Shown one piece after another: positions 1,174 to 20,432 of a stretch of DNA of 64,000 nt. The translations under genes were made by a program, and so were the position numbers. The DNA lies in the NCBI GenBank assembly GCA_026461075.1, contig JAPJNH010000042.1, forward strand, positions 40,166-104,165, written 5' to 3'. This DNA is from Chitinophagales bacterium (GTDB taxonomy: Bacteria; Bacteroidota; Bacteroidia; Chitinophagales; CAIODY01). Within the stretch, counting starts at the first letter, position 1, and the number at the start of each line of letters is the position of its first letter. Below the pieces are notes generated by a model, which did not search any database, was not told the DNA's origin, and saw only the letters and a program-made list of their open reading frames with translations.

Positions 1174-1194
1174 TTAACCTTCCAAAAAATAGTT

Positions 1195-2745: not shown

Positions 2746-2788
2746 AGGTATTCTTTCTTATCTCCTCAAAATTTACGAACTTAGTTTT

Positions 2789-5278: not shown

Positions 5279-5289
5279 TTTTGCAATAA

Positions 5290-5466
5290 TTATTCCTTTG
5301 GCATTGCAATTGCCAAAATGATATACAGCAATAGTCCGCTACCAAAGCAAATTACGCCTACGAGAAATAGGATTCGAATAATCGTTGGGTCGATAGTAAA
5401 ATAGTCGCCCATGCCCTCGCATACACCGAACAATTTGCCAGATTTTTTGGTTATTTTTTTTTGCAT
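5290..5466 (-). CDS. PspC-domain small membrane protein (58 aa, below the ORF-track size cut-off)
   Basis: Hand translation of the minus strand gives MQKKITKKSGKLFGVCEGMGDYFTIDPTIIRILFLVGVICFGSGLLLYIILAIAMPKE. The G(V)C.G...YF.IDPT..R..F motif followed by one TM helix is the PspC domain signature. Confidence 0.75.
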   Translation of the reverse strand: MQKKITKKSGKLFGVCEGMGDYFTIDPTIIRILFLVGVICFGSGLLLYIILAIAMPKE

Positions 5467-5610
5467 AAACCAAATTTAATTGTTTTTAAATGGTTTATCC
5501 AAATCTTAATTAGCAATTAAATTAAGGAAGGTCATTTTTTATTAGCGTTTCTTTATGTAAATTGTGTCTAGCAAACAATTTAATATCAACTACAAAACAA
5601 TTCTACGCTT

Positions 5611-6795
5611 ATGTTACATTTTTTTTCTGCTAGTACGCGAATGGTGAATACCAAAAGAGGGGTAATGGAATTGATGGAATCGGCTATGGGTAGCGATTAT
5701 GCAAATGCAGATTTGATTATATTACATGCGTCGATTGGTCATAATTTTCAAGATTTAGTAGATCAAGCTCATGAAATGGCTCCGAATGCGCGTATCGTAG
5801 CAGCTTCTTGTTGTGGCGTTGTTGGAGTGGAAGGGGTGAGTGAGTCGATGAAAGACATAGCTTTAATGGCGGTTAAAGGCAAAGATTTTGCATTGGCAAG
5901 TGTAGATGGAATAAACGGACATAACTCCTATGAAAAATGCAAAGAAATGGCTTTGTCCATGAAGGCGGATAAGCCAGGTATCAATATGATTTATTTCTTA
6001 GGTTCTGGAATTGATATTGCCAATGATCTTTGCATTAAAGCCTTTGAAGAAGTGTTCGGTAAAGATGTCACGATATTTGGGGCAACATCTTCTGATAACA
6101 TGAAAGGCTTCGTTTCTTATCAAGCGGTTGATAATAAAGTTACGGAGCACGGTGCTTATGCGATTGGTTTTGCGGATCCTACTTTAAGCGTTGATACGCA
6201 AGCAACACATGGATTTGTAGCGGTGGGCGAACCATTGCTTGTTACGAAGTCGAATGGACATATTATAGAGGAGTTTAATGGTAAACCGGCTTGGGAAGAA
6301 TATACTCGCCGTTTAGGTTTGAGTGCTGATTCAACCTGCGGTGACACTATACCCGTCGGAGCATTAGGAGAGAAGTTAAATCCTGAATTGGCAAAAGAAT
6401 ATGGTAATCAACATATACTACGCGTTGTAACAAAACGTGTGGGCAATGATATGTATTATTCCACACAATGTCCTTTTGGAACTGAATTGTGGTTGACCAC
6501 CCGTGATGAAGATTTGATATTCTCAGAAATGGATCGAATGGTGAATGATATGATTACTCGTTCTAACGGTAAGCAAGCAGTTGCTGTTTTTCATGCAGAC
6601 TGTTTAGCTCGTGGTCGATTTTTGTTCAATAGAATTATTAAAGAAGAATTAGTAAGCCGTATGCAAAATCCATTCTATACCAATGGCGTTTGTCCTCCTT
6701 GGTTAGGCATGTATGGGTTCGGAGAATTTGCAAGATTAGGTGGCGAAAACACCTATCATAATTATACTACTGCGCTTTATGTCATTTATCGTTAA
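5611..6795 (+). CDS. FIST-domain signal-sensing protein (FIST_N + FIST_C)
   Basis: 394 aa and soluble. SCCGVVG-type motif in the N-terminal half and NGKPAWEEYTRRLGL-type motif in the C-terminal half. It lies directly upstream of a histidine kinase. Confidence 0.65.
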   Translation: MLHFFSASTRMVNTKRGVMELMESAMGSDYANADLIILHASIGHNFQDLVDQAHEMAPNARIVAASCCGVVGVEGVSESMKDIALMAVKGKDFALASVDGINGHNSYEKCKEMALSMKADKPGINMIYFLGSGIDIANDLCIKAFEEVFGKDVTIFGATSSDNMKGFVSYQAVDNKVTEHGAYAIGFADPTLSVDTQATHGFVAVGEPLLVTKSNGHIIEEFNGKPAWEEYTRRLGLSADSTCGDTIPVGALGEKLNPELAKEYGNQHILRVVTKRVGNDMYYSTQCPFGTELWLTTRDEDLIFSEMDRMVNDMITRSNGKQAVAVFHADCLARGRFLFNRIIKEELVSRMQNPFYTNGVCPPWLGMYGFGEFARLGGENTYHNYTTALYVIYR

Positions 6796-6806
6796 TTAGA
6801 ATTAAA

Positions 6807-9686
6807 TTGAGCGAAACGCCTTCCTATAATGAATTATTGCAATCCTATCGTGATTTGCAATTACGTGTTACTCGATTTTCTTCGGTTGAACAGGAGTTAA
6901 TTAATATTCGTGATCGATTGGATCATGAGTTGGTATTATATCGTCGACTTCAAGACTTTTCAAATGAAGCCATTAGTGAAAACTCCCTTATTGGTTTTTT
7001 TCGTAAAATTGTTGAATCTGTTGTTGATATCTTCGAGACTGAAGGTGCTATTTTTATGACCGATAAGGGTGATTTTTTTACCGAAGGTTATAATTTTAAA
7101 GAGGAGCAGGTTCAGCAATGCAAACAAACTATAATTAATTTCAGTAAGCGTTTTCGAGGAGGTACCGCCAATCGTATTAGCAATGCTGATTTGGAGAAAG
7201 AAGGTGTTGTTGATTTTGCGCGCGGTTTGTTTTATCATTTGAATGATAAAAGTTCAGGACAGACCATCTATATACTTGGATTCATCTCCAAGGAAAAGGA
7301 TCCTTTATATAATGAGTTTTTAGTTCGTCATGAAACGATTTTTGCTGTTTTTGCAGAACAAGTACGCGCTATTCTTGGCAATCTAATAAAATCTGTACGC
7401 CTTGCTGAAAACAGTATTTTATTAAAGCAGCTTTCTCTAATTGCAACCAAAACAAAAAATGGTGTCATCATCTCGGATCGATTTGGGAATATTGAATGGG
7501 TTAATGATGCGTTTGAGAATTCGACAGGATATACATTAACGGAGGTGAAAGGTAAGAAGCCAAAGGACTTCCTTCAAGGCGAAGAAACCTCTCCGGAATC
7601 AAAGCTAAAGTTGTCCATAGCATTAAAGAATAGAGATACGGTTGAAGTGCCTGTGGTTAATTATACCAAAGAAGGGAAGCCGTATACCGTTATGCTGGAA
7701 ATTACTCCTATTTTTAATGAGGAGGGACAGCATATTAATTTTATTGCATTACAAAAGGATGTTACGGAGGAGTTGAAGTATCGCTCAGAAATTCTTCGGA
7801 TCAATCAACGTTTCGAACAGATTAGTAATAAGTCTGAAATCGGTATTTGGGCCTCGGAATTTGAAACACATAAAGTCGAATGGAATGAGGTCATGTATCG
7901 AATATATGGGGTTCAACGCACAGGTGAAGAGCTAGATTATTTCAACTTATGGCTCAGTCATATTCATCCAGATGATTTTAATTCTGTGAATGAAAATATG
8001 CATGCCATTGTTTCTGGTACCATTGATCGAGTAGATGAAGAATATCGAATCATTCGTTCAGATAATAAGGAGGTAAGAATTCTTAGTACACTGACCATTG
8101 CAGAAAGAGACGCAGATGGGAAGTTGATTCGATTAATAGGAACATCTACTGATATAACGGAGCGTAAGTCTGCCGAGCAAAAACTTAAGGCAAGTGAGGA
8201 AAAGTATCGTGTGATTATCGATAATATGGCGCTCGGATTGGTGGAGGTAGATTTGGAAGAGGAAATCCTTTTTAACAATAAAAAGTATCTGGAGTTCGTT
8301 GGAGAAGGGAATGAATCTGATTTAATACTTGGGGCTAATCCTGAATCCACCTTGATGGAAAAAGTGGAAAATGGCTTGATTGTCAGCTATACGAAAATTG
8401 AGGATAATGTTTTTGAGGTTGAATTGAATGCAAGTGTTGAAGTTTCAAAAACACTTTTGCTAAGTACTAGTCCGATTTATCAAGGAGATTCCTTGAAAGG
8501 GTATATTAGTATTTACTTAGATATTACGCCGATAAAATCGCTGCAACGAAATCTTGAAAATGCACTATTAGAAAGAAATGAATTCATTCAGCAAATTGAT
8601 AGTGTAAAACAGTTTTATGAAAGTGTATTGAATCACACTCCGTCAGAAATAGCCGTTATAGATGCGAATGCTAAGGTGTTATTTGTGAACAATCATTGGA
8701 GAGAAAATGAAAGTGCTTGGAGTAAATTAAACGGTCAATCTTTATTGCAAATTGCGCAAAATAATCTTTCTGAATATGATTCTATTCGTAATTTGATTTA
8801 TAAATTAAATACGGCAATGGCTCAAAATAGTCTATTGCAATTTGAAGAAGAACGTGCTAGCGGTGTAGGAAGTAGTACTTCTATTTTAAGAAATATTCTA
8901 CCGTATTCTAATGAGGCAGGATTATTAGAGTATTTAGTAGTTTCTGGTACAGAGATTACCGAATTAAAGCAAATTCAAATAGATCTAGAATCAAAGAACG
9001 AAGAGTTGAATAAGATCAATTCCGAACTAGATAAATTCGTCTACTCCGTTTCACATGATTTGCGATCTCCATTATTAAGTATCAAAGGTATTTTAAGTTT
9101 GGTATTTAAAACCGCTCAACTTGACGAAAAAACACAACAGTATCTTAAGTTGGCAGAAACCTCTGTATTACGATTGGACGGTACCATTAAAGAAATACTT
9201 AATTATTCCAGAAATGCTCGTTTTGGAATTGAGTTGGATGAGTTTGATTTGTCCAATGTAATTAATGCCGTTATTGATGATTTACGTTTTTCTGAAGAGT
9301 CGAAGGTTAATTTTATGGTAGAGATGCCAAATGAATTCCTTTTAAAATCAGATAAAATGCGGGTGGAGGTGATTCTCAAAAATTTGATAGGAAATGCGGT
9401 GAAATATGCTCGAAAGGATATTCATGACGCCTATGTTAAAATTACCGTTTCACGGAGTGTCAATGAATTTGAAATAAAAATAGAGGATAACGGAGAAGGA
9501 ATCGCTGAAGAAAATCTAAGTAAGATATTCGACATGTTCTATCGTGCCACTAGTTCTAGTGTTGGGACAGGTCTTGGTTTATATATTTGTAAAGAAATGG
9601 TTCAAAAATTAAACGGAAAGCTATTTGTGGAATCTGTCTTGAAAAAAGGTAGTATATTCACTTTAATACTTCCAGCTAATTCTTAA
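6807..9686 (+). CDS. Cytoplasmic multi-PAS sensor histidine kinase (TTG start)
   Basis: No TM helices. Several PAS/PAC units (e.g. GYTLTEVKGKKPKDFLQGEE; HIHPDDF...YRIIRSDNKEVRIL). HisKA H-box FVYSVSHDLRSPL. HATPase N/G boxes GNAVKYA, DNGEGI, GTGLGLYICK. Confidence 0.9.
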   Translation: MSETPSYNELLQSYRDLQLRVTRFSSVEQELINIRDRLDHELVLYRRLQDFSNEAISENSLIGFFRKIVESVVDIFETEGAIFMTDKGDFFTEGYNFKEEQVQQCKQTIINFSKRFRGGTANRISNADLEKEGVVDFARGLFYHLNDKSSGQTIYILGFISKEKDPLYNEFLVRHETIFAVFAEQVRAILGNLIKSVRLAENSILLKQLSLIATKTKNGVIISDRFGNIEWVNDAFENSTGYTLTEVKGKKPKDFLQGEETSPESKLKLSIALKNRDTVEVPVVNYTKEGKPYTVMLEITPIFNEEGQHINFIALQKDVTEELKYRSEILRINQRFEQISNKSEIGIWASEFETHKVEWNEVMYRIYGVQRTGEELDYFNLWLSHIHPDDFNSVNENMHAIVSGTIDRVDEEYRIIRSDNKEVRILSTLTIAERDADGKLIRLIGTSTDITERKSAEQKLKASEEKYRVIIDNMALGLVEVDLEEEILFNNKKYLEFVGEGNESDLILGANPESTLMEKVENGLIVSYTKIEDNVFEVELNASVEVSKTLLLSTSPIYQGDSLKGYISIYLDITPIKSLQRNLENALLERNEFIQQIDSVKQFYESVLNHTPSEIAVIDANAKVLFVNNHWRENESAWSKLNGQSLLQIAQNNLSEYDSIRNLIYKLNTAMAQNSLLQFEEERASGVGSSTSILRNILPYSNEAGLLEYLVVSGTEITELKQIQIDLESKNEELNKINSELDKFVYSVSHDLRSPLLSIKGILSLVFKTAQLDEKTQQYLKLAETSVLRLDGTIKEILNYSRNARFGIELDEFDLSNVINAVIDDLRFSEESKVNFMVEMPNEFLLKSDKMRVEVILKNLIGNAVKYARKDIHDAYVKITVSRSVNEFEIKIEDNGEGIAEENLSKIFDMFYRATSSSVGTGLGLYICKEMVQKLNGKLFVESVLKKGSIFTLILPANS

Positions 9687-9688
9687 CC

Positions 9689-10072
9689 ATGTACGAATAT
9701 TTGTTAATTGATGACGATTCTGTAATCAACTTCCTACACAAGGAGTTGATTACAATTGCGATTCCAAATGCAATTATTCACGAGTTTCAATCCAGCAAAC
9801 AAGCTTTGAATAAGATGAAACAAAGAATGCAAGAAGGTACTTGTCCGACGGCGGTCATATTTTTAGATATTAATATGCCTGAAATGAATGGATTCGAGTT
9901 TTTGGATGAATTGAAGATGATTGCGGGAGATCATTTCGATCAAGGTTGTAAAATTGTAATGGTTACTTCTTCGCTCAATGAAAAGGATAGAGAACGAGCA
10001 ATGTCTTATCCTTTCGTAAGCAATTACATGGAGAAGCCACTAACTTTAGAATATTTAAGTAGTCTTTCGTAA
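9689..10072 (+). CDS. Single-domain response regulator (receiver only)
   Basis: Acidic pocket LLIDDD, phospho-acceptor in FLDINMPEMNG, conserved T/S (VTSS) and K (EKP). It starts 2 nt after the kinase stop. Confidence 0.9.
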   Translation: MYEYLLIDDDSVINFLHKELITIAIPNAIIHEFQSSKQALNKMKQRMQEGTCPTAVIFLDINMPEMNGFEFLDELKMIAGDHFDQGCKIVMVTSSLNEKDRERAMSYPFVSNYMEKPLTLEYLSSLS

Positions 10073-10099
10073 TTCTGTTGCTTTGCGTACCTTTAACGT

Positions 10100-10720
10100 A
10101 TGCGATATATTTTGATTTTCTTATTGTTTTGGCAATATAATGCACAGGCAAAAAAGCTTGTATTGAATCCTTGTCAAATTCGAGTAAGCGCCATTCGTCC
10201 CGCTTTTCCTCTAACTAAATTCTATGGGGTAATAGGAGATGGTCCAATACACCCAATGATTGAAGTCGGGACTAGTTTTAATTGGAATCATTCACCTAAA
10301 AACTGTTTTTCCCAATCTATAAATATCGGCTTTGCCTATCACCGTTTTCTGCAAAGCATGCTACCTATCTACTCTGATTTAAACTATATGCGTATGATTA
10401 GTTTTAAAAAGCAGAAAATTGGCGCAGGTTTATCTCTTGGCGCTGGCTATTTACATAGTTTTCCATTAACAGATCAATTTAAAATGGTGAATGGTGTCTA
10501 CGAACAAGTAGGGCGATTGGGGCGTTCACAAGCGATGTTGAAAGTAGGTGCTTTTATACGTTTTAAGCAGTTTACATTTGGGTATAACAACATCATTCAA
10601 ACCCCATTTGTTAAAAGTTATGTGCCGTTAATGCCTTACAATTGCTTGAGCCTTTCCTATACGTTCAATTCTAATTGTTGTGTTTCTCCAACTAAAAAAT
10701 CTACTGATGCGACTAAATAA
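10100..10720 (+). CDS. Hypothetical secreted protein, possibly a small outer-membrane beta-barrel
   Basis: Signal peptide (MRYILIFLLFWQYNAQA). Alternating hydrophobic pattern, with LSLSYTF near the C-terminus. No recognisable catalytic motif. Confidence 0.45.
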   Translation: MRYILIFLLFWQYNAQAKKLVLNPCQIRVSAIRPAFPLTKFYGVIGDGPIHPMIEVGTSFNWNHSPKNCFSQSINIGFAYHRFLQSMLPIYSDLNYMRMISFKKQKIGAGLSLGAGYLHSFPLTDQFKMVNGVYEQVGRLGRSQAMLKVGAFIRFKQFTFGYNNIIQTPFVKSYVPLMPYNCLSLSYTFNSNCCVSPTKKSTDATK

Positions 10721-11876
10721 ATTTTTTTTGTTTCTAAGTGTTTTCACACTTATAACATGGAATGCGTGTCGTAAGGCGGAAACAAATGCTTCATCGGCAT
10801 GTACGGTAGAGGCGCCTAAAAGTCATCCTAAATCTGTCGCCTTTCAATCCTTGATGGATGAGGCTACGAAAGCCGGATTGCCTGGTATGAGCTTATTGAT
10901 CGCTGATTCAAATGGCGTCTGGTACGGAGCTTCCGGTATGGCTGATATCGAATCTAATATAGCCTATCAACCTTGCTCGGTACAAAAATTAGGTAGCATT
11001 ACAAAAATGATGATGGCGGTAATGGTGATGAAATTGGTGGAAGAAGGCAAAGTAAATATCGATGATAAAGTCTCGAAATGGTTGGATGCAAAGACTATTG
11101 ATGGTATTGCCAATGCAGATCAAGTAACGCTCCGCAATTTAATGCAACATGCCACTGGTATTTATGATATCATTCGTAGCAGCGATTTCTATTTGGCGGT
11201 TTTACATAATCCAAATAAGCACTGGACTGGCGAGGAATTACTGACTTATGTAAGAGGGCAGGCTGCGGTATTTACAGCTAATACAGAAGTGCGTTATTCA
11301 AATACCAACACTTTGCTTTTAAGCATGTGCATCGAAAAAATTACGGGCCGTCCGCACAATGAATTACTACATGAAAAGGTGATTGACCCAATCGGGATGA
11401 CGAATACCTATTATCATACACATGATGCATTACCAGCCATTACTGCGCAAGGATACTATGATTTGTATAATAAAGGGACCGTTTCTAATGTTAGCAACAT
11501 CGTAACAGGAAGTGGAAATGGGTTTACGGGTGTTTATAGCAATGTCTTCGATTTGCAGAAATTCGTGAAGGCGGTCTTTATCAATAAGACTATTCTCAAG
11601 CAAAGCACTTTGGATACCATGATGCAATGGAAGCAGAACTCGCCAGATACCGACTTTGGTTTAGGTTTATTTAGGAAGAGCCTTGGAACTAATAGCACTG
11701 AATACCGAATTGGTCATACCGGAGGCGATTTAGGTTATGCCTGCGAGATGTATTATTTCCCGCATAACGGCCGATACTTTATTTTGTGTGTCAATTATGG
11801 CACAGACAGCGATAGCTACTTAAAACCGACTTATGTGCAATTGGTGAAGGATATCGTGACGGAGATGAAGAAGTAA
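10707..11876 (+). CDS. Serine hydrolase of the beta-lactamase / class C (AmpC-like) fold, lipoprotein
   Basis: SxxK (SVQK) and YxN (YSN) motifs. Lipobox LITWNAC after the ATG at 10707. The track start at 10680 would overlap the upstream gene and precede the signal peptide. Confidence 0.8.
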   Translation: MRLNKFFLFLSVFTLITWNACRKAETNASSACTVEAPKSHPKSVAFQSLMDEATKAGLPGMSLLIADSNGVWYGASGMADIESNIAYQPCSVQKLGSITKMMMAVMVMKLVEEGKVNIDDKVSKWLDAKTIDGIANADQVTLRNLMQHATGIYDIIRSSDFYLAVLHNPNKHWTGEELLTYVRGQAAVFTANTEVRYSNTNTLLLSMCIEKITGRPHNELLHEKVIDPIGMTNTYYHTHDALPAITAQGYYDLYNKGTVSNVSNIVTGSGNGFTGVYSNVFDLQKFVKAVFINKTILKQSTLDTMMQWKQNSPDTDFGLGLFRKSLGTNSTEYRIGHTGGDLGYACEMYYFPHNGRYFILCVNYGTDSDSYLKPTYVQLVKDIVTEMKK

Positions 11877-11879
11877 TGC
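11796..11879 (+). repeat. Direct repeat DR1-left (the functional 3' end of the hydrolase gene)
   Basis: 84 nt. 80/84 identical to 12747-12830 by hand alignment. Confidence 0.9.
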
Positions 11880-11899
11880 GGATACTTTATTTATAAGTA

Positions 11900-12622
11900 T
11901 TAATGACCCAATATCATTTTTCTGGTGCCCTCCTTTCCTACATTAAATAAAGTATCTATTATGGAAAGATTGGCAACGAATGGACCGTTAATTTGTGTGT
12001 ATTCTTGAGGGGTATAATCGGAGTAAATTAGCTCAATATTTTTTTTTATAAATACGTCCTCTTGATTATATTTTCTAGCTCCTGTTCCGGATAAATATTT
12101 ATTAGCTTTGAAATGTAAGCAAATGTTTAAGTTACGTTCGTTTTGTGTTCCTAAACTTCCATCATCAAAATGCGAAGCAATTTTAATGGTTGTGTGGATA
12201 TTTAATTGATTCAATATCCATAAGATTATTTTGGTGTTGAACGCCGCTAAATTTGATGCAGGCTCTAAATAAAGTTTTTCTAATTCTGGATAAAATTCTT
12301 TGAAATAGGGTGCCTTGAAATACGCGTCTTTTATTTGATTTAAGTGCTTTAAATGCCATTTGGTGCTATAATCAAGTTCTAATTCATTGTAATTCTGAAA
12401 TGCTCCTTTCGATTTTTTTACAGATACAGACAGTAATACTTTTTCACCCGTTTTACCTTTGATGTAATTTCGAGCTGCAGGACTTTCTTTAGGAAATTGA
12501 ACATTATCAAGAAAAACGAATGTATCACTATGGGCAATTTTATAAAAATAGCCTAGCCATGGGATATAGTTGGGTTGGTGTATAGCTATAATACAAGAAG
12601 TATCTTTTGAATTTGCAGTCAT
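11900..12622 (-). CDS. WbqC-family protein
   Basis: N-terminal IHQPNYIPWLGYFYKI motif and an overall length of ~240 aa, typical of the WbqC-like family seen in O-antigen/glycan clusters. No other glycan gene lies next to it here. Confidence 0.7.
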   Translation of the reverse strand: MTANSKDTSCIIAIHQPNYIPWLGYFYKIAHSDTFVFLDNVQFPKESPAARNYIKGKTGEKVLLSVSVKKSKGAFQNYNELELDYSTKWHLKHLNQIKDAYFKAPYFKEFYPELEKLYLEPASNLAAFNTKIILWILNQLNIHTTIKIASHFDDGSLGTQNERNLNICLHFKANKYLSGTGARKYNQEDVFIKKNIELIYSDYTPQEYTQINGPFVANLSIIDTLFNVGKEGTRKMILGH

Positions 12623-12746
12623 TCTTTATTTTATAATTCAATGCTCAAATGGTTTGAAACAACTTAAACCTCGCACTAAGATAGGTGTTTTAAACCACAT
12701 TAGAAATCAAAACTCAAGTCATTCAGCGAGAATTAATTTCAGTCTA

Positions 12747-12830
12747 TATGGCACAGACAGCGATAGCTATTTAAAACCGACGTATGTGCAATTGGTGAAG
12801 GATATCGTGACGGAGATGAAAAAGTGATGC
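12747..12830 (+). pseudogene. Direct repeat DR1-right: orphan duplicate of the last 26 codons plus stop of the hydrolase gene
   Basis: Encodes YGTDSDSYLKPTYVQLVKDIVTEMKK*, identical in protein to the end of 10707..11876. The upstream part of track ORF 12570..12827 has no similarity to the hydrolase. Confidence 0.85.
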
Positions 12831-12890
12831 CTAGTATAAATCTAATTTCTTTGAAAGAAAGAAGATTGATTCAGCAATTAAACTACTTGC

Positions 12891-13343
12891 TTAGTTGAAT
12901 TGCTGCTTTTGTAATTCTACCAGTTTTACAATTGATGAAACAATATTGGCAAAAACAGTTTTGTTCCCTTTGTAAAAGTAATCGGTAGCTCCGTTACGGA
13001 TAGTTTCAATGGCAATCTCTAAATCGTCTTGACCTGAAACCATCATGACTACCGCAAATTTGTTTTTTTGTTTGATAGCTTTTAAAATGTCGATTCCAGT
13101 TAAATTACTGTTTGAATCGAAATAATAATCTAGTATTATTATTCTAAAATCTTCAGCTGTAAAATCTTCTAAGAATGATTCCCCATTGGTATAAACATCC
13201 ATTCTCATTTTGCATTCATCATACAAAAAATCACCAAGCATGGTAGTAAAGGATAAGTCATCGTCTACTATTATGATTTTCGGCTTTTTGATACCCTCTG
13301 GTATCGCTTTCATTTTTTCTAAAGCTTCAAAAATTGTGATCAT
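12891..13343 (-). CDS. Orphan single-domain response regulator
   Basis: IIIVDDD, ILDYYF (acceptor Asp), MVSG and YFYKG motifs. No kinase is adjacent. Confidence 0.85.
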   Translation of the reverse strand: MITIFEALEKMKAIPEGIKKPKIIIVDDDLSFTTMLGDFLYDECKMRMDVYTNGESFLEDFTAEDFRIIILDYYFDSNSNLTGIDILKAIKQKNKFAVVMMVSGQDDLEIAIETIRNGATDYFYKGNKTVFANIVSSIVKLVELQKQQFN

Positions 13344-13574
13344 GATTAGGGAACTATTGTTGACTGAACGAGCGAATGACGAGTTAAAACTAAAAATTTA
13401 TTTTTGGAATATAAGGAGCTAATGGTGGTTTTGTTTTCCAGTGTGGATGATATTAATTATTTTATTATTTTTAAGAATAATTCTATTTGCAATGAAAAAC
13501 TTTAAGGCTTGATTTTTAAACTTGATTGCTTTTATTGATAAAAATGAATTAGAATCGTACTTAATTGCTTTAAA

Positions 13575-14042: not shown

Positions 14043-14140
14043 CTTGTGCATAGTGCAAGCCATGAAAAATGCGGGGAAAATGTAATTCAATTCCCCTAAA
14101 ACAAAAAAGCCTTTCTTTTCAGAAAGGCTTCTTGTGATCC
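14043..14140. repeat. Repeat copy A: 98-nt duplicate of the spacer, terminator and first nt of the tRNA-Lys 3' end
   Basis: 93/98 identical to 20268-20365. It contains the hairpin AGCCTTTCT-TTTC-AGAAAGGCT flanked by A-run and T-run, a bidirectional terminator between 13575..14018 (+) and 14198..15799 (-). Confidence 0.9.
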
Positions 14141-14197
14141 TAACATTACCAGATTTCTTGTTTTATTCGGTAACATTTATAAGTGAATTAAACACAC

Positions 14198-15799
14198 TTA
14201 AAAATGTTCAAACTTCTGTAAGGAAAGTCTCTTCCCATTTTTACTAAACATAGCAAAATACTGGCCGGGCAATAATTTGGAGATATTGATAGTTTGTTGG
14301 CTTTGCGTTAGCTCATAAGTGCTTATTTGCTTGCCAACCAGATCATACACCGTGAATTGAATAGGAAAGCCTATTTGATTGTCTTTAATTTTAATACTTA
14401 ACTCATCACTGCTTGGGTTGGGATACAGTAGTATATTTAATGCTTGCGTGTTAGAAGCAGTAGGCGGATCAAATAGGCCTGTCTCCACACCACAATCATT
14501 TGGACTAAGACAACCATCAGGGCTTAGACGAAGCAGCCAGCCTTGTTGACTGATAAAATTGGGAGCGACTTTTTGAATAAATATATTGCCTAATACTATA
14601 ATTGAACCATCAGAAAGGTAATCAAAATCATCAAATTCATCAGTAGTTAAAAAATTTGGAATAGGGTGGCTTCCAATATAATTTCGTTCCCAGGTAGTAT
14701 TGCCTAATGTATCTGTTTTGACAAGAAATCCGTAAAACCCTGAAATAGAGGTATCTTTTGAATTTACATGTCTTTCGCCTACCATTAAAAGGTTGCCTTG
14801 ATTAGGGACTTGTTTTATTTTATTTAAGCCAAAATACTCTGTTGTGTCTGCGTAGGTCTGTTTATATAATCGCTGATAATTACTATTAAATTTATAAAAT
14901 GATGGTTTTAGATAAGCGTTACCACTGCCATTGGGGTAAGAAAATCTGTTTATGATGTGTTTCCCACAGCCATAAAATCTGTTATTAAAGAAGATGGTTG
15001 ATTGAGAAGCATAGGCATTACTATCAGAATAATTGTGAGTTGTTACTAAGTTGCATGCGGTGTCTAATTCATAAATGTAGTTAATAGTATGTATGTGATA
15101 AATAGGGTCAGTAATATTCAAGTTACTATCTCCAGAAACTGTTAGATATAGTTTGTTGTTGTGAAATAAGATTGAATTAGTATAAATATTTGACCTATCA
15201 AACAATGAATCAATAGTTTTATGTACGAAATTTCCATTGCTATCTGTTTTAATAATAAATGGATGTGTGGGGTGGTGTTCGTAAATTGTTTTAAGTTCTT
15301 TTTGTGTAACACCTGCTATGTAAAAATTTTTTGTTGCATCCATTGTTAAACAATATCCTGAGTATATCTGAACTGCGGTATCTTTAGCATCAAACAGTAG
15401 AGTGCCATTTAAATTAGTATCTACTTTTAAGAGAAATACATGGAATGGGGGGCGATAATTAGAGTTTGAATTGGTATCAATTAAATAACCTGTAAGATAA
15501 ATATTTTTCTTCCAAATCAATTCACTATTTCCTTGTGGAACAAATTGCATAATTCCACTTTTTCTATAATATTTATATTGGATAAGGTTTCCATTTGCAT
15601 CAAATTTTGCCACAAAGGTTTTTAAACTATTAAAAGTGCTATCATTAGTGTAACCTGTTACATAAATATTGTTATCTATCACATTTATAGCAGTAGTAAC
15701 TACAGCTTGACTATCTAATACAAATGTTTTGCTGAAGTTTTGTGCAAGCAAATAATTAGCTTGTAACAATAACATTAATAGAATTATTTTTCTCATCAT
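14198..15799 (-). CDS. T9SS cargo protein with repeated beta-propeller-like units
   Basis: Signal peptide from MMRKIILLMLLLQANYLLAQ. The track start at 15832 lies inside a hairpin loop, so the ATG at 15799 is preferred. Repeated D.NGN motifs. C-terminal LYPNPSSDELSI... sorting domain. Confidence 0.75.
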   Translation of the reverse strand: MMRKIILLMLLLQANYLLAQNFSKTFVLDSQAVVTTAINVIDNNIYVTGYTNDSTFNSLKTFVAKFDANGNLIQYKYYRKSGIMQFVPQGNSELIWKKNIYLTGYLIDTNSNSNYRPPFHVFLLKVDTNLNGTLLFDAKDTAVQIYSGYCLTMDATKNFYIAGVTQKELKTIYEHHPTHPFIIKTDSNGNFVHKTIDSLFDRSNIYTNSILFHNNKLYLTVSGDSNLNITDPIYHIHTINYIYELDTACNLVTTHNYSDSNAYASQSTIFFNNRFYGCGKHIINRFSYPNGSGNAYLKPSFYKFNSNYQRLYKQTYADTTEYFGLNKIKQVPNQGNLLMVGERHVNSKDTSISGFYGFLVKTDTLGNTTWERNYIGSHPIPNFLTTDEFDDFDYLSDGSIIVLGNIFIQKVAPNFISQQGWLLRLSPDGCLSPNDCGVETGLFDPPTASNTQALNILLYPNPSSDELSIKIKDNQIGFPIQFTVYDLVGKQISTYELTQSQQTINISKLLPGQYFAMFSKNGKRLSLQKFEHF

Positions 15800-15812
15800 T
15801 GAATACATTAAT

Positions 15813-15850
15813 CTTACCTTCCCCCTATCCATTGATAGGGGGAAGGTAAG
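15813..15850. other. Perfect 16-bp GC-rich inverted repeat (hairpin) between two cargo genes
   Basis: CTTACCTTCCCCCTAT-ccattg-ATAGGGGGAAGGTAAG, read directly from the sequence. Confidence 0.8.
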
Positions 15851-15865
15851 GAATTAATTTAAAAT

Positions 15866-16957
15866 TTATTTTTGAATAATGAAATTGCCTTGACCGATTA
15901 TATTATTATCGCAAATCAGTTTATAGTAATATGTCCCATCTACAAATTGAGAAGCGTTGATAATTTTTAGGGATTGTGTGCCTGTTACTTCTTCTATTAA
16001 AACATTTACACCTTGGGTATTGAATACTTCAAGATGTGCTGCATAGTTGCATGGTACTTTGTATTCAAAGGCTACATAACTGTTGGATGGGTTAGGATAC
16101 ACTTTTACGTAATTTTTAATATCGGTAATAGGTTTTGTAACTTTTGCTTTTGGTTCAGATTTACGCATTTCAGCTTCATCTGGTATTTCAGGATAATTTC
16201 TATAATTACCATCATAAAAGAAATTTATTACGTTTTTAGCTTTTGTGCCTGCTAAGCTACTATGGCTATCAGCAAATTTTTTTAGGTCGGCAAGGTTTTG
16301 ACTGCTTAATTCATTCATGCTTTGCTCCGATTTCAGCCAACTGATTTTTAAATTTAACCAATCTCTAAAATCGGTTTGCTCGGTTTGCTGTTTTTCATCT
16401 AAAGTATATTTGAGTGGGATGCTATCGGTAATTGTGTTTGCTGTTGCAATATCTCCATCTTCGAGATATTCTTCAGCCAACATCATATCGGCTTCAGGAT
16501 TTTGTAATAATACTAACCAATGCCGATGAGTATTATTGTCGAAACCAATAGAATCATTTTGCTGGCTATAGCTTACCTCACGATAGGTTTGCATCATATT
16601 GCTAACGGCTGCTGCATCATTGCGATTAAGAATAGTACGATAGGTAACTTGGTCGGCATTAGCGGTGATAGCTTCATACATCCATTCAGGAAATTGACTT
16701 TGCTCTACCATTTCTCTTAAATGGTCGTCAAATGCTGGTTGACGTGTTACATCAGGGTTTGCCATTAAAATTTCAAACACCACAGCATCGCCAAAAATGC
16801 TTATTTGATTGCATAACTCAAACAAGGCATCCATACTTAAGAATGGCGATTGATTTAATAACTCTAATCTACGTGCTTGCACTTCGGGTGCTAAGGTGGT
16901 GGCAACTTGGTCAACTAATTGAACGGTATTCCCATTATCAATTAGGCTGTTGAGCAT
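15866..16957 (-). CDS. T9SS cargo gene remnant lacking a signal peptide (probably 5'-truncated)
   Basis: C-terminal VYPNPSNSYVAFEY... sorting domain, but the N-terminus MLNSLIDNGN has no signal peptide. The frame stays open upstream of the first ATG until a stop at 17009-17011, inside repeat copy B. Confidence 0.6.
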   Translation of the reverse strand: MLNSLIDNGNTVQLVDQVATTLAPEVQARRLELLNQSPFLSMDALFELCNQISIFGDAVVFEILMANPDVTRQPAFDDHLREMVEQSQFPEWMYEAITANADQVTYRTILNRNDAAAVSNMMQTYREVSYSQQNDSIGFDNNTHRHWLVLLQNPEADMMLAEEYLEDGDIATANTITDSIPLKYTLDEKQQTEQTDFRDWLNLKISWLKSEQSMNELSSQNLADLKKFADSHSSLAGTKAKNVINFFYDGNYRNYPEIPDEAEMRKSEPKAKVTKPITDIKNYVKVYPNPSNSYVAFEYKVPCNYAAHLEVFNTQGVNVLIEEVTGTQSLKIINASQFVDGTYYYKLICDNNIIGQGNFIIQK

Positions 16958-16995
16958 ATTATCGTAATAATAATGTTGCCCTTTTTGATAGTTGA

Positions 16996-17044
16996 AATCT
17001 GTTTCTTTTCAGAAAGGCTTCTTGTGATCCCGCTGGGACTCGAA
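16996..17044. repeat. Repeat copy B: half terminator plus the last 20 nt of tRNA-Lys
   Basis: 17002-17044 matches 20337-20379 at 42/43 positions. Its single difference from copy C (C instead of T) is shared with copy A. Confidence 0.9.
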
Positions 17045-17382
17045 AAGGAATTTTAATAATGCTGTTAAATTTCGAATCGTTGAACAGTTGCCTTGCGCAT
17101 TAGGCATATATTAGTTAAAAGTGAAAGCCATTTGTTGTTTTATATACTTCAAGAATTTTTTTTGAAAAAAATGTTTTAAATATAAATTACTTAAAAACAA
17201 TTATTTAACGTCATTAAATGCAAAAAAAAACTATTGCTCATTTCTAGGGTATTGCATATATTAATAATGTAATGTACATTGTGCAAAGCCTTGGCATGTA
17301 CTCCTCTTGCTAAGACTAAACAATAAGCCTATTTCTTTCAAAACCTTTGAAATTATTAATCACTAACTAAATAGCATTTAGA

Positions 17383-19824
17383 ATGAAAAATCTACTAATA
17401 ATTATTTTTACTTTAATCGCGTTTAAGTCATTCGCGCAAATGCCACCAACCAATACCATTGGCGATTGGCAATGGTCGAGTAACTATGCAACAAGTTGGG
17501 ATAAACAAAATTATATGCCCGACTATTCAAATACAATACTTTATGTCCATGAGGATTCCTTTTCCAATGTTATAAGTGTAGGAATTACAACAAAACATAC
17601 CATACTAAAAAACTTAAATGGGCTCCACACAGGTTATGATTCTATTTATCCTAGTGACAAAATTGGACAGATGGGTGGAATCATTACAAAATATGATTGT
17701 GCAGGAATGGTAATATGGTCGCATTTAATTGGGGTTAAAAAAAGTTTTTCAAGTGCTGGTCGCTTATATATGGCAGATGCTTTAACTGACGAAGGTGGTA
17801 ATACTTACCTATATATTTGTTGTGAATCGGCTGACTTTTTGGATACTGTATGGTTTGGAAATAAAGTGCTTGCGATGCCCTATAGCACGAATTCGCCTAA
17901 TTACAGAAATATAATGACAAAAATTGATGCGAATGGGAATATTGCATGGGTAAAAGACTTTCAAGACGATTTCTTAATTAATAATTATTTAACATTAGCC
18001 CCTCATCAAAATAAACATTTTACAGCTTGGAGGTACACTATGACAGATTTTTATGATATTGGAAAAGGAGCGCATATGTTTAGTTTGTTGAATGACACTA
18101 TTCATTTTTTTGGAATGATTGATTCTACTTTCATTTTATTTCCGAACAATAACTTACATCCTCCAACTTGCCAATGGCCCGCAGCTGCTCGTCAACCGAC
18201 CCTTTTGGAAATTGCTGCACAATCAGGGAGCTTACTTAATAAATATCAATTTGTTCCTAGAAAATATTTGGGAGATACTACCTTATGGTCTTTGTATGAC
18301 TTAAAAGCAAACTTCGAGAATCTAGGACATGGGGAATTTAGAGCTATTATTGCAATTTCACCTACAGGACCAAAAAGTATGTGGGATTCATTACCGCCAA
18401 CTCCATTTTTGGACGCAATACTTTTAGGACGTAATTTTCCACTTTATATTAGAGGTGGTGCTCCTGAAGATTCGTATCGAAGATATTTCTCTTTAACCTT
18501 TACAAAAACGCATTTGATTTCAATTAATTTTTTAGGAGATTCAGTAGCAATTATTGATGCACAAAGTCATCCGAATATGCCACGTTATGAATTATTGGTC
18601 AGTGGCTCCCGAAACACAAAAATACTGGGCACTAATTTAGCTTTAAAATCTAAAGTAAAATCGAATGAACTTAGGCAACAAGACTATATTAATCAAGGCA
18701 CTCCATATTGGGCCTCACCTCTCGCTGTAACTGAAAGTGAAGGTGTTTTACAGCTAGGAAAAAATGATCAGTTAAATAGAATTATTCAAACCGATTCAAG
18801 TAATTTTGAGTTTTTTAGAAGCGTAGCATGTATTAAAAATCCTATTGCCTCTATTTATTCTATGGAATCCTATGCTACATTTACAACAACATTACCAGCA
18901 GAGGTAGCAATTCAAGGTTATAAAATAACGACTTCCAATATTATTGGGCAAGGGGGACTGATTCAATTCGATGGTAATTCAGGACAGATAATCAATCAAA
19001 ATCTAAGTAATAAACAGCTTAGCCGAGTTATCCCGTCAAACTATCCTGAGTTCCCTATGTGGCATTACTCAGAAATTTATCAATCAGAAAAAGGAAATAT
19101 TTACTATTATGGTCATTTACTTGGTGGTTGGAAAATAACTATCCCTGGGGACGACACAACAAAAGGTCAAAGTTCATCCAGTTTTCCTTATCCAGATGCA
19201 GACGCTTTGTTTATTAAATTCGGTAATAAATGCGGTATCAATTCAGATACCGTTACGGTGGCGCCATTAGAGCCAAGCTGGCTAAGCGCCAGCTGCTCAG
19301 ATGAAACAGGTATTGTACTTAAATGGGATGATAACTCCCATACAGAAATTGGGTATAAGATATATCGAGCAGTGAATAAAGGTTCCTATTCTTTACTTTG
19401 TACTTTACCTGCCAATTCAAAGGGTTATACAGATCATCTAGTAATACCTGCTTCAACGTACCACTACAAAGTGTATGCTTATAATCGTATAGACACCAGC
19501 TTTGCAGCTACGGTTAGTAAAACGCTTTGTTATGCCGATGGCACTGAGAATATCAATCCATTACAAACAAATGGAAGAATTTACCCAAATCCAAGTGCTA
19601 CTAATCATTTTACGGTGCTATACAATGCTACGCAAAATGAAACCGCAATCTTACGTGTAGTTAGTTTAAACGGTGCATTACTTTATGAAAGTAAAGTTGC
19701 AATCAATCCTAACGCTAATAGTTACGAAGTAGTATTGCCTAGCACCACACCTGCAGGAACGTATTTAGTTAGTTTAATTGGTACACAAACTATATATCAA
19801 GATAAAGTTGTGTTGGTGAAATAA
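17383..19824 (+). CDS. Large T9SS cargo protein with an FN3 domain
   Basis: Signal peptide MKNLLIIIFTLIAFKSFAQ. FN3-like LKWDDNSHTEIGYKIYRA...YHYKVYAYN. C-terminal IYPNPSATNHFTV... sorting domain. A terminator hairpin follows at ~19857-19890. Confidence 0.8.
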   Translation: MKNLLIIIFTLIAFKSFAQMPPTNTIGDWQWSSNYATSWDKQNYMPDYSNTILYVHEDSFSNVISVGITTKHTILKNLNGLHTGYDSIYPSDKIGQMGGIITKYDCAGMVIWSHLIGVKKSFSSAGRLYMADALTDEGGNTYLYICCESADFLDTVWFGNKVLAMPYSTNSPNYRNIMTKIDANGNIAWVKDFQDDFLINNYLTLAPHQNKHFTAWRYTMTDFYDIGKGAHMFSLLNDTIHFFGMIDSTFILFPNNNLHPPTCQWPAAARQPTLLEIAAQSGSLLNKYQFVPRKYLGDTTLWSLYDLKANFENLGHGEFRAIIAISPTGPKSMWDSLPPTPFLDAILLGRNFPLYIRGGAPEDSYRRYFSLTFTKTHLISINFLGDSVAIIDAQSHPNMPRYELLVSGSRNTKILGTNLALKSKVKSNELRQQDYINQGTPYWASPLAVTESEGVLQLGKNDQLNRIIQTDSSNFEFFRSVACIKNPIASIYSMESYATFTTTLPAEVAIQGYKITTSNIIGQGGLIQFDGNSGQIINQNLSNKQLSRVIPSNYPEFPMWHYSEIYQSEKGNIYYYGHLLGGWKITIPGDDTTKGQSSSSFPYPDADALFIKFGNKCGINSDTVTVAPLEPSWLSASCSDETGIVLKWDDNSHTEIGYKIYRAVNKGSYSLLCTLPANSKGYTDHLVIPASTYHYKVYAYNRIDTSFAATVSKTLCYADGTENINPLQTNGRIYPNPSATNHFTVLYNATQNETAILRVVSLNGALLYESKVAINPNANSYEVVLPSTTPAGTYLVSLIGTQTIYQDKVVLVK

Positions 19825-20267
19825 GGCTTCTTCGTAAGTTATTTATCATTTGCACAAAAAAGCCTCCAATAATTCTATTGGGGGCTTTTTTGTGCGCTAG
19901 GTCTATTCATAACACTAAGCAGTAATTTAACATCACATCTACTAAAATTGGGGCTTATTAAATAACATAGAAAACAGGTAATAATTCCAAATAGATTCAC
20001 ATCAATTCAAATCGAATTAAATCAATTTAAAAGGATATAACCAGAGACTATTTTATTCTTGTATACGAACGTAGGTGAGAATGGAAATAGAGCGATTAGC
20101 ATTAAAAGCGGTTGAAAATTATAGAGAATCCAATGCAATAGTGGCTATGCATTCACTTATTTATACCCATCAATTCAAAAGTAAATAACGACTTAGCTAC
20201 AAATTGAACCTGTTTACGGTGCAAATTCCGTGCAATATGCCTTCATTTTTATCCTCCAAGAAAAATA

Positions 20268-20365
20268 CTTGTGCACAGCGCAAGTCATGAAAAATGTGGG
20301 GAAAATGTAATTCAATTCCCCTAAAACAAAAAAGCCTTTCTTTTCAGAAAGGCTTTTTGTGATCC
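20268..20365. repeat. Repeat copy C (adjacent to and overlapping the 3' end of the intact tRNA-Lys)
   Basis: Partner of copy A. It includes the tRNA terminator hairpin at ~20333-20354. Confidence 0.9.
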
Positions 20366-20432
20366 CGCTGGGACTCGAACCCAGGACCCCAACATTAAAA
20401 GTGTTATGCTCTACCAGCTGAGCTACGGAATC
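20360..20432 (-). tRNA. tRNA-Lys (anticodon UUU)
   Basis: Minus strand reads GATTCCGTAGCTCAGCTGGTAGAGCATAACACTTTTAATGTTGGGGTCCTGGGTTCGAGTCCCAGCGGGATCA. It forms a cloverleaf with a 7-bp acceptor stem (one G-U pair), anticodon loop CUUUUAA and T-loop GGTTCGAGTCC. CCA is not encoded. Confidence 0.9.

What the first reader, a model, noticed from the sequence alone, without database searches (positions are those of the whole stretch)
11796..12830. Lone WbqC-family gene bracketed by an 84-bp direct duplication of a gene 3' end, with all 4 differences silent
The last 26 codons plus stop of the serine-hydrolase gene (11796-11879) recur at 12747-12830, 951 nt away. The WbqC gene, in antisense orientation, is the only thing in between. 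By hand alignment 80/84 nt match. The four differences are TAC/TAT, ACT/ACG, AAG/AAA and TAA/TGA, which are synonymous or stop-to-stop. This pattern suggests both copies diverged while under coding selection, one host-borne and one carried by incoming DNA, rather than by decay after a local duplication. That is the footprint of an element that integrates into a gene 3' end and restores it. However, the payload is a single glycan-modification-type gene with no recombinase.
Basis: seen in the sequence. Interest (0 to 1): 0.6.

Follow-up and report, generated by a model that had tools for sequence, protein, structure and literature searches.

The report
Orphan gene-end left by haplotype recombination
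The 84-base duplicate of a hydrolase gene's end beside a lone WbqC gene is real, and strains without the insertion exist, but it looks like a scar from recombination between two alternative versions of a variable gene island in a freshwater Chitinophagales bacterium, not a self-mobile element.

Summary
Windows 11796-11879 and 12747-12830 match at 80/84 with no indels. All four differences are synonymous or stop-to-stop. These are the only two copies in the genome.

Two independent metagenome assemblies of a conspecific strain (L040, L049) carry the empty site: the hydrolase gene runs straight into the 12831+ flank, and its 3' end carries copy-2 markers. Filled equals empty plus exactly 951 nt.

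The "integrating element" reading is not supported, for these reasons:
- The closest WbqC anywhere (75% aa, L042) sits in the same convergent position after the orthologous hydrolase. There it has no duplication and is the last gene of a three-gene operon. So only the joint 12746|12747 is new.
- The unit has no recombinase, no terminal inverted repeats and almost no non-coding DNA.
- It has no other copy or context in any collection searched.

All filled strains share one recent origin. Segment 11876-13076 differs at 2 sites between strains whose flanks differ by 5-6%.

Best reading: one illegitimate joint fused a hydrolase-wbqC haplotype to a hydrolase-receiver haplotype, inside a flexible island that runs to tRNA-Lys. 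That stranded an orphan hydrolase 3' end. The process is known, so interest is modest.

The parts
10707..11876 (+). Beta-lactamase-family serine hydrolase gene (389 aa from ATG 10707; the ORF is open from GTG 10680). It is intact and is the functional copy.
   Evidence: PF00144 E 2.8e-50. It is 96-98% aa identical in L034, L035, L040 and G002. It is strongly mosaic among strains.
11796..11879 (+). Copy 1 of the repeat: the last 26 codons, the stop and 3 nt of the functional hydrolase gene.
   Evidence: It differs between filled strains at 4 silent sites.
11880..11899 (.). 20-nt spacer between the convergent stops of the hydrolase and wbqC genes. The adjacency is shared with L042, so it is not a new joint.
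   Evidence: L042rc 1-5687 aligns as a single collinear blastn match to window 6903-12589, across the spacer.
11900..12622 (-). Lone WbqC-family gene (240 aa), intact.
   Evidence: PF08889 E 3.9e-68. It is 0/723 nt different in L010-L013. G+C is 31.7% against 39.7% for the genome. The closest homolog is 75% identical, in L042.
12623..12746 (-). 124-nt region upstream of wbqC (29.8% G+C), presumably its promoter. It ends at the only novel joint, 12746|12747.
   Evidence: It cannot be aligned with the region upstream of wbqC in L042.
12747..12830 (+). Copy 2: an orphan 3' end of a second hydrolase allele, continuous with the downstream flank as in the empty-site allele.
   Evidence: It is identical in all filled strains.
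12891..13343 (-). Receiver-only response regulator (150 aa). It is the first gene of the flank that directly follows the hydrolase gene in the empty-site allele.
   Evidence: PF00072. It is 100% aa identical in L040, where it lies next to the hydrolase gene.
11876..13076 (.). Low-diversity tract shared by all filled strains: 2 differences, against 5-6% divergence on both sides. It marks a single recent origin of the filled haplotype.
14043..14140 (.). Left copy of a 98-nt repeat (tRNA-Lys downstream terminator plus 7 nt of the tRNA end). It bounds further strain-specific modules of the same island.
   Evidence: L040 goes straight from 14140 to 20268.
20268..20432 (-). Right copy of the 98-nt repeat plus the intact tRNA-Lys(UUU) gene (20359-20432). 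This is the right border of the variable region that begins after the hydrolase gene.
   Evidence: Synteny with G002 resumes at 20323.

Best explanation
The segment between the hydrolase gene and tRNA-Lys is a flexible genomic island that exists in several alternative versions in this Chitinophagales population. One version (A) has the hydrolase gene followed convergently by wbqC. Another (B) has the hydrolase gene followed directly by the receiver gene. The window carries a recombinant of the two. DNA of one version entered a cell of the other. It paired by ordinary homology on one side and was joined illegitimately on the other, at 12746|12747. This could have been homology-facilitated illegitimate recombination, or a single crossover of a re-circularised fragment. 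The joint fell 84 nt before the end of the B-type hydrolase sequence. As a result, the last 26 codons of that allele were stranded as an orphan downstream of wbqC, while the A-type gene stayed intact. The silent differences exist because the two copies were alleles of a working gene in different lineages before the event, and because copy 1 has stayed under selection since. Shown: the empty allele, the single novel joint, the allelic nature of the copies, and the single recent origin. Inferred: the direction of transfer, the type of recombination, and that an A-type haplotype exists in a close relative.
For: 1. Empty allele. L040 and L049 are independent assemblies, 100% identical to each other. 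In both, the hydrolase gene is followed directly by the 12831+ flank. Filled equals empty plus exactly 951 nt.
2. Copy 2 shares ACG, TGA and the downstream flank with that allele. Copy 1 shares ACT and AAG with G002, and the window's copy 1 also shares its TAA stop.
3. L042 holds the closest WbqC among 5.8 billion proteins (75% aa). It lies in the same context: histidine kinase, receiver, 203-aa gene, hydrolase, then convergent wbqC. It is collinear with window 6903-12589 at 72% nt. It has no repeat, and wbqC is the last gene of a ceramidase / 362-aa / wbqC operon. WbqC divergence (75% aa) is in the range of its neighbours there (59-84%). So the 11879|11880 adjacency is old and only 12746|12747 is new.
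4. The locus is a hot spot. G002 has two T9SS proteins after the hydrolase gene. L034/L035 have a six-gene biosynthetic cluster. L040 has the receiver gene.
5. Segment 11876-13076 differs at 2 sites between the window and L010/L011, while the hydrolase gene differs by 4.9% and the receiver gene beyond 13077 by about 6%. This indicates one recent event, and the copies already differed when it happened.
6. There is no recombinase in or near the unit. The genome has two Xer-like tyrosine recombinases, one integrase on contig C122, and no serine recombinase.
7. Both proposed mechanisms are documented. HFIR has been invoked for displaced orphan 3' ends in T6SS and Rhs arrays (PMC5361080). Single crossover of re-circularised fragments gave 109-950 bp duplications of the homologous segment (PMC3240628).
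Against: No A-type haplotype (hydrolase-wbqC followed by something other than copy 2) was found in a close relative. L042 is only 72% identical, and its region upstream of wbqC does not align with 12623-12746. Microhomology at the joint and the direction of transfer therefore cannot be checked. Classical HFIR usually deletes recipient DNA rather than duplicating it. The exact 'empty plus 951 nt' relation fits a Campbell-type insertion, which is also what a site-specific element would give. Two more duplication-flanked, recombinase-less modules lie in the same island at tRNA-Lys, so a shared trans-acting recombinase cannot be excluded.
Confidence: 0.62

Rival explanations
1. A small recombinase-less integrative cassette (CIME-like). 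A 951-nt circle carrying wbqC and an 84-nt attP-like copy of the hydrolase 3' end integrated site-specifically into the gene end, using an integrase supplied in trans. It restored the gene and displaced the host's own end.
For: The topology matches an integrated element. There are direct repeats, the target gene is intact, and the empty site is present in a conspecific strain and differs by exactly the unit length. The displaced copy carries host-type markers. The same island holds other recombinase-less modules bounded by tRNA-Lys 3'-end repeats, one with its border at the start of the T-loop in L010.
Against: The hydrolase-wbqC adjacency exists without repeats, and inside an operon, in L042. 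The unit has only 20 + 124 nt of non-coding DNA for att arms. It has no terminal inverted repeats. There is no other copy in the genome and no other context in any contig holding this WbqC. No haplotype has an integrase next to the hydrolase gene. All filled strains trace to a single event, so there is no sign of repeated mobility.
Confidence: 0.12
2. A purely local event. An 84-nt (or 951-nt) duplication arose in situ, for example by replication slippage or by repair of a staggered break during insertion of wbqC. The copies diverged afterwards. The silent pattern arises because copy 1 is under selection.
For: Two of the four differences (TAC, TAA) are indeed later changes in the functional copy of the window's lineage. 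In L010/L011 copy 1 has changed at other silent sites while copy 2 is invariant.
Against: The filled haplotype shows about 0.17% divergence over 1200 nt between strains. Yet the copies differ at two sites fixed in all filled strains, and at those sites copy 2 matches states seen in other haplotypes: ACG in L040, and AAA in L034/L035. The model does not explain where wbqC came from, or why the orthologous adjacency occurs in L042. An 84-nt target duplication is far beyond what transposases make, and the unit has no inverted ends.
Confidence: 0.08
3. The filled form is ancestral. The empty allele (L040/L049) is a pop-out by homologous recombination between the two 84-nt copies, so the 'empty site' is secondary.
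For: Direct repeats of 84 nt at 95% identity can recombine. L040's gene end is copy-2-like throughout, as expected for a crossover near the left edge of the repeat.
Against: L040 differs from the filled haplotype by about 3.5% in 12747-13076, where filled strains are nearly identical to each other. The B lineage is therefore older than the sampled filled haplotype. This rival also does not explain how the duplication first arose.
Confidence: 0.08

Closest known systems
Homology-facilitated illegitimate recombination (Acinetobacter baylyi, Streptococcus pneumoniae, Pseudomonas stutzeri), as invoked for displaced orphan 3' ends and immunity genes in T6SS, Rhs and CDI arrays (PMC5361080; PMC3240628 introduction)
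   Same: There is one homologous anchor and one illegitimate joint. New DNA arrives next to a conserved gene. The former gene end is pushed downstream and survives as an orphan. No recombinase is needed. The locus is a recombination hot spot with alternative modules.
   Different: This gene is a housekeeping-type hydrolase, not a polymorphic toxin. The orphan is only 26 codons long and has no partner gene of its own. Microhomology at the joint and the direction of transfer could not be tested. Natural competence of this uncultured lineage is unknown.
Campbell-type single-crossover insertion of a re-circularised fragment (insertion-duplication; duplications of 109-950 bp seen in E. coli conjugation experiments, PMC3240628)
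   Same: The insert is flanked by a direct duplication whose length equals the homology carried by the incoming molecule. No recipient DNA is lost. The two copies are chimeric alleles.
   Different: 84 nt is shorter than the experimental range. No circular intermediate was observed. The circle would itself require a prior illegitimate end-joining of donor DNA.
CIMEs and ICE/IME integration into the 3' end of a protein-coding gene (ICESt1/ICESt3 at fda in Streptococcus thermophilus; recalled from general knowledge, not tested here)
   Same: Direct repeats contain the 3' end of a protein gene. The gene is kept intact. The element lacks its own integrase. Empty sites exist in other strains.
   Different: No cognate integrase was found anywhere near any haplotype. 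The cargo is natively adjacent to the target gene in a relative that has no repeats. There is no evidence of excision or of a second insertion. There is very little non-coding DNA for recombinase binding.
Additive flexible genomic islands next to tRNA genes (concept from marine and freshwater population genomics; general knowledge)
   Same: A strain-variable, AT-richer block lies between a conserved gene and a tRNA gene. It contains surface- and secretion-related cargo, repeated tRNA 3' ends, and alternative cassettes in conspecific strains.
   Different: The 84-nt repeat lies at the far end of the island from the tRNA gene and involves a protein-coding gene end, not the tRNA.

Membership tests
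Site-specific integrative element / CIME at a gene 3' end | Direct repeats (attL/attR) flank the insert and the target gene is restored | tested here: met
   84-nt repeat at 95% identity; the hydrolase ORF is intact.
Site-specific integrative element / CIME at a gene 3' end | Empty site in related strains that differs by exactly the element | tested here: met
   L040/L049: the hydrolase gene is continuous with the 12831+ flank, and the difference is 951 nt.
Site-specific integrative element / CIME at a gene 3' end | A cognate recombinase in the element, or a related element with one at the same site | tested here: not met
   wbqC is the only ORF in the unit. No haplotype (G002, L034, L040, L042) has an integrase beside the hydrolase gene. 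The genome has two Xer-like recombinases, one integrase on C122, and no serine recombinase.
Site-specific integrative element / CIME at a gene 3' end | The cargo is foreign to the site, so both element borders are novel joints | tested here: not met
   The hydrolase-wbqC border is collinear with L042, which has no repeat.
Site-specific integrative element / CIME at a gene 3' end | Excision, a circular form, or independent insertions | not testable with these tools
No other copy or context was found, and all filled strains share one origin.
HFIR / displacement scar | Exactly one novel (illegitimate) joint, with the other side homologous in both parents | tested here: met
   Only 12746|12747 lacks a counterpart. 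Copy 1 and everything to its left is homologous in all haplotypes, and copy 2 and everything to its right is homologous to L040.
HFIR / displacement scar | Both parental haplotypes exist in the population | tested here: inconclusive
   The B type was found in a conspecific strain (L040/L049). The A type was found only in a relative 72% identical in DNA (L042). No WbqC between 75% and 100% identity is in the protein collection.
HFIR / displacement scar | 3-10 nt microhomology at the illegitimate joint | not testable with these tools
   This needs the donor sequence beyond 12746, which is not sampled.
Campbell-type single crossover | No loss of recipient DNA, and a duplication equal to the shared homology | tested here: met
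   Filled equals empty plus 951 nt. The repeat ends where the A and B flanks diverge.
Transposon / insertion sequence | Terminal inverted repeats, a transposase, and a short target-site duplication | tested here: not met
   No inverted repeats at the unit ends. There is no transposase ORF. An 84-nt duplication is far longer than transposase target-site duplications (general knowledge).
WbqC-like protein family (PF08889) | A full-length match above Pfam's gathering score | tested here: met
   230 bits against a cut-off of 21.3, covering profile positions 1-217 of 218.

The most novel reading that the evidence does not exclude
Single-gene and few-gene cassettes in this island spread without a recombinase of their own. 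Each carries a short copy of the 3' end of a conserved neighbour (84 nt of the hydrolase gene; about 112 and 29 nt at tRNA-Lys). Each would enter by RecA-type single crossover of a circular form and could pop out the same way. The three nested duplication-flanked modules in one locus would then be products of one general, homology-hitchhiking way of building additive islands.
Probability: 0.1. Interest if true: 0.55.

Novelty: new member of a known kind. Interest (0 to 1): 0.3.

Why it matters
It is a clean natural example of how flexible islands are rebuilt. One parent allele is in hand: the empty site, from a conspecific strain in the same lake study. A distant representative of the other parent is also in hand. 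A single illegitimate joint leaves a dated orphan gene end. The case also shows that "all differences silent" between a gene end and its duplicate is a useful sign that the copies were alleles before they came together. That signal must be polarised with outgroups, however, because selection on the functional copy alone produces part of it. There is no new mechanism or function here. WbqC remains biochemically uncharacterised. The gene is probably one more surface-glycan variable in a population that also shuffles T9SS cargo at this locus.

Tried and rejected
- **Assembly artefact:** rejected. The joint and both copies recur in contigs from five other samples.
- **Transposon or integron cassette:** rejected. 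There are no inverted ends, no transposase, and no array of like-oriented cassettes.
- **Other copies of the unit:** none in the genome. There are no close wbqC relatives among 150 species of the order (best 45%). No WbqC between 75% and 100% identity exists in the protein collection.
- **Remnant of the upstream L042 operon gene in 12623-12746:** there is no convincing alignment. An 8-codon open end (RLKLILAE*) abuts the joint but does not resemble the L042 protein. The L042 partner genes are absent from the whole genome.
- **Repeat flanking the wbqC operon in L042:** none.
- **Genome-wide search for similar duplication-flanked insertions:** apart from the three at this locus, only tandem or paralogous repeats, an intergenic 211-nt pair and a 66-nt pair on C119, and a 74-nt pair near the window's right end, none of them examined beyond the C119 211-nt pair.
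- **Shared motif at the repeat borders of the hydrolase and tRNA-Lys events:** only a GCACAG hexamer, judged to be chance.
- **Exact look-up of the window's hydrolase protein:** not on record with either start.
- **Literature on WbqC:** no functional study was found.
Full report
**1. The observation**

The window holds a two-copy direct repeat of 84 nt, at 11796-11879 and 12747-12830. The copies are 951 nt apart and match at 80/84 without gaps.

Copy 1 is the in-frame end of a 389-aa beta-lactamase-family serine hydrolase gene (PF00144, E 2.8e-50). It covers 26 codons, the stop and three more bases. The differences are TAC/TAT, ACT/ACG, AAG/AAA and TAA/TGA, all silent.

The only gene between the copies is a 240-aa WbqC-family gene on the opposite strand (PF08889, E 3.9e-68). 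The assembly is a 2.5-Mb, 166-contig genome of a freshwater Chitinophagales bacterium, and it contains exactly these two copies.

Contigs from other metagenome samples span both copies and the joint (L010, L011, L012). The structure is therefore not an assembly artefact.

**2. The empty site exists**

An exact look-up of the receiver protein downstream of copy 2 returned contig L040 (JGI 3300043520). There the hydrolase gene is followed directly by the 12831+ flank and the receiver gene, with no wbqC.

A second assembly from another project, L049 (ENA ERZ28594020), is 100% identical to L040 over 7 kb. To the right of the site this strain is 96-98.5% identical to the window, so it is conspecific.

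Filled equals empty plus exactly 951 nt. The empty allele's gene end shares TAT, ACG and TGA with copy 2 and continues into the same flank.

**3. The two copies are alleles, not a decayed local duplicate**

I aligned the gene end from the window, two more divergent filled strains (L010/L011), the empty strain, a third haplotype (L034/L035), the sister species G002, and L042.

- Two differences are fixed between copy 1 and copy 2 in all filled strains: ACT/ACG and AAG/AAA.
- TAC and TAA are private to the window's lineage of copy 1.
- L010/L011 carry other silent changes in copy 1 (GGT, AAA), while copy 2 is invariant.

Part of the "all silent" pattern is therefore ordinary purifying selection on the functional copy. 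Under neutrality the raw 4/4 has probability 0.001-0.006, but the polarised 2/2 only 0.04-0.07.

The stronger argument is about age. Between the window and L010/L011, segment 11876-13076 has 2 differences. This segment holds wbqC, its upstream region, copy 2 and 246 nt of flank. The hydrolase gene on its left differs by 4.9%, and the receiver gene beyond 13077 by about 6%.

The filled haplotype is thus very young and of single origin. That is too young for its two copies to have acquired their fixed differences afterwards. At those sites copy 2 carries states seen in other functional alleles: ACG in L040 and AAA in L034/L035.

**4. wbqC is not foreign to this position**

The closest WbqC in a 5.8-billion-protein collection (75% aa; nothing lies between 75% and 100%) sits on contig L042. 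Its context there is histidine kinase, receiver, 203-aa gene, hydrolase, then convergent wbqC.

L042 aligns collinearly with window 6903-12589 at 72% nt, straight across the hydrolase-wbqC boundary. WbqC divergence (75% aa) is in the range of its neighbours (59-84%).

L042 has no duplicate of the hydrolase end. Its wbqC is the last gene of a three-gene operon: alkaline ceramidase, a 362-aa protein, and WbqC. The window's genome lacks both partner genes.

The next-closest homologs (65-71%) lie inside conserved glycan clusters with the order PIG-L deacetylase, WbqC, GT1 glycosyltransferase, MocA oxidoreductase, hexapeptide acyltransferase and DegT aminotransferase.

The border 11879|11880 is therefore ancestral. 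The only new joint in the window is 12746|12747.

**5. The locus is a flexible island**

Synteny with the sister species G002 stops at the hydrolase stop codon and resumes at 20323, beside tRNA-Lys(UUU). The content between these points varies by haplotype:

| Haplotype | Content after the hydrolase gene |
|---|---|
| G002 | two small T9SS proteins |
| L042 | the wbqC operon, then those two T9SS proteins |
| L034/L035 | a six-gene cluster (KAS III, MBL-fold, epimerase, ATP-grasp), rejoining the window at 13367 |
| L040/L049 | the receiver gene and a 147-aa gene |
| The window | wbqC, the orphan end, receiver, the 147-aa gene, and two further T9SS-cargo modules |

The two T9SS-cargo modules in the window are bounded by copies of the tRNA-Lys end and its terminator: 14043-14140, 17002-17044 and 20268-20379.

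The block is AT-richer than the genome. wbqC is 31.7% G+C and the receiver gene 31.6%, against 39.7% for the genome.

**6. Mechanism**

The data show one illegitimate joint between two alternative haplotypes that share the hydrolase gene. Three routes fit.

- **(a) B-type DNA into an A-type cell.** The fragment starts 84 nt before the end of its hydrolase gene and runs rightwards. It is anchored by homology on the tRNA-Lys side and joined illegitimately upstream of wbqC, replacing the upstream operon genes. This is a textbook insertion-plus-deletion outcome of homology-facilitated illegitimate recombination (introduction of PMC3240628).
- **(b) A-type DNA into a B-type cell.** The fragment is anchored in the hydrolase gene, and its far end joins inside the resident gene. 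The resident gene end is displaced, as proposed for orphan 3' ends in T6SS and Rhs arrays (PMC5361080).
- **(c) A re-circularised 951-nt fragment enters by single crossover.** This route gave 109-950 bp duplications experimentally (PMC3240628).

I cannot choose among these without the donor sequence beyond 12746.

**7. Against a self-standing integrative cassette**

- The cargo is natively adjacent to the target gene in L042.
- There is no recombinase in the unit or beside the hydrolase gene in any haplotype.
- The genome has only two Xer-like recombinases, one integrase on another contig, and no serine recombinase.
- The unit has 20 + 124 nt of non-coding DNA and no inverted ends.
- It occurs in one context only and traces to a single insertion event.

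I keep this reading at about 0.12. The topology is that of an integrated element, and the tRNA-Lys modules nearby show that recombinase-less, repeat-bounded modules do accumulate in this island.

**8. What could not be done**

Allele frequencies, pop-out products and circular forms could not be examined. The one metagenome-contig scan and the one genome-contig scan were both spent on the hydrolase protein.

**9. Verdict**

The thing itself is a recombination scar in a flexible island, not a new kind of mobile element. Interest is modest at 0.3, and it is a new instance of a known process.

Noticed in passing
window 9500-11876 versus G002 (L009/L047): The window and the sister species G002 are 72-80% identical across most of the flanks. 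Identity jumps to 86-94% from about 9500 to the hydrolase stop codon, covering the receiver, 206-aa and hydrolase genes. This looks like a recent interspecies transfer of that segment. L010/L011 additionally carry a short G002-like tract at 11561-11594.
   Followed up: partly
window 5500-9400: The FIST and multi-PAS histidine kinase genes are hyperdivergent (72-85% nt) between strains that are 92-98% identical on both sides (L035, L040). This suggests alternative alleles of the sensor pair within one species.
   Followed up: partly
window 14043-14140, 17002-17044, 20268-20379: Two further recombinase-less modules carrying T9SS cargo genes are bounded by copies of the tRNA-Lys 3' end plus terminator. 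L040 lacks both modules and L010 lacks the first. In L010 the repeat border falls at the first base of the tRNA T-loop.
   Followed up: partly
L034 2033-8670 (also the tail of L035): An alternative haplotype replaces wbqC and the receiver gene with six co-oriented genes: KAS III-like, unknown, MBL-fold, NAD-epimerase/dehydratase, unknown, and ATP-grasp. This is a small biosynthetic cluster of unknown product, absent from the window's genome.
   Followed up: partly
own genome C119:9536-9746 and 17470-17680; window 19995-20030: A 211-nt intergenic sequence is repeated at 91% identity on either side of a 2083-aa ORF and a 343-aa ORF on contig C119. It contains the motif TTAATTCGATTTGAATTGATGTGAAT. 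The reverse complement of that motif occurs, partly reiterated, at window 19995-20030 between the 813-aa cargo gene and tRNA-Lys. It may be a shared regulatory element.
   Followed up: no
loci L044, L051, L053, L054: WbqC homologs 65-71% identical sit in a conserved gene order: acyl-carrier/hexapeptide protein, MBOAT, a 315-aa protein, PIG-L deacetylase, WbqC, GT1, MocA oxidoreductase, hexapeptide transferase, DegT. The tight PIG-L-WbqC pairing, with overlapping or 1-8 nt gaps, hints at a joint step on an N-acetylated sugar.
   Followed up: no
window 12570-12827 (+): An 85-aa TTG-started ORF runs antisense over the wbqC start and reads copy 2 in its original frame. It is probably spurious but would fuse new residues to the 26-aa hydrolase tail.
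   Followed up: no
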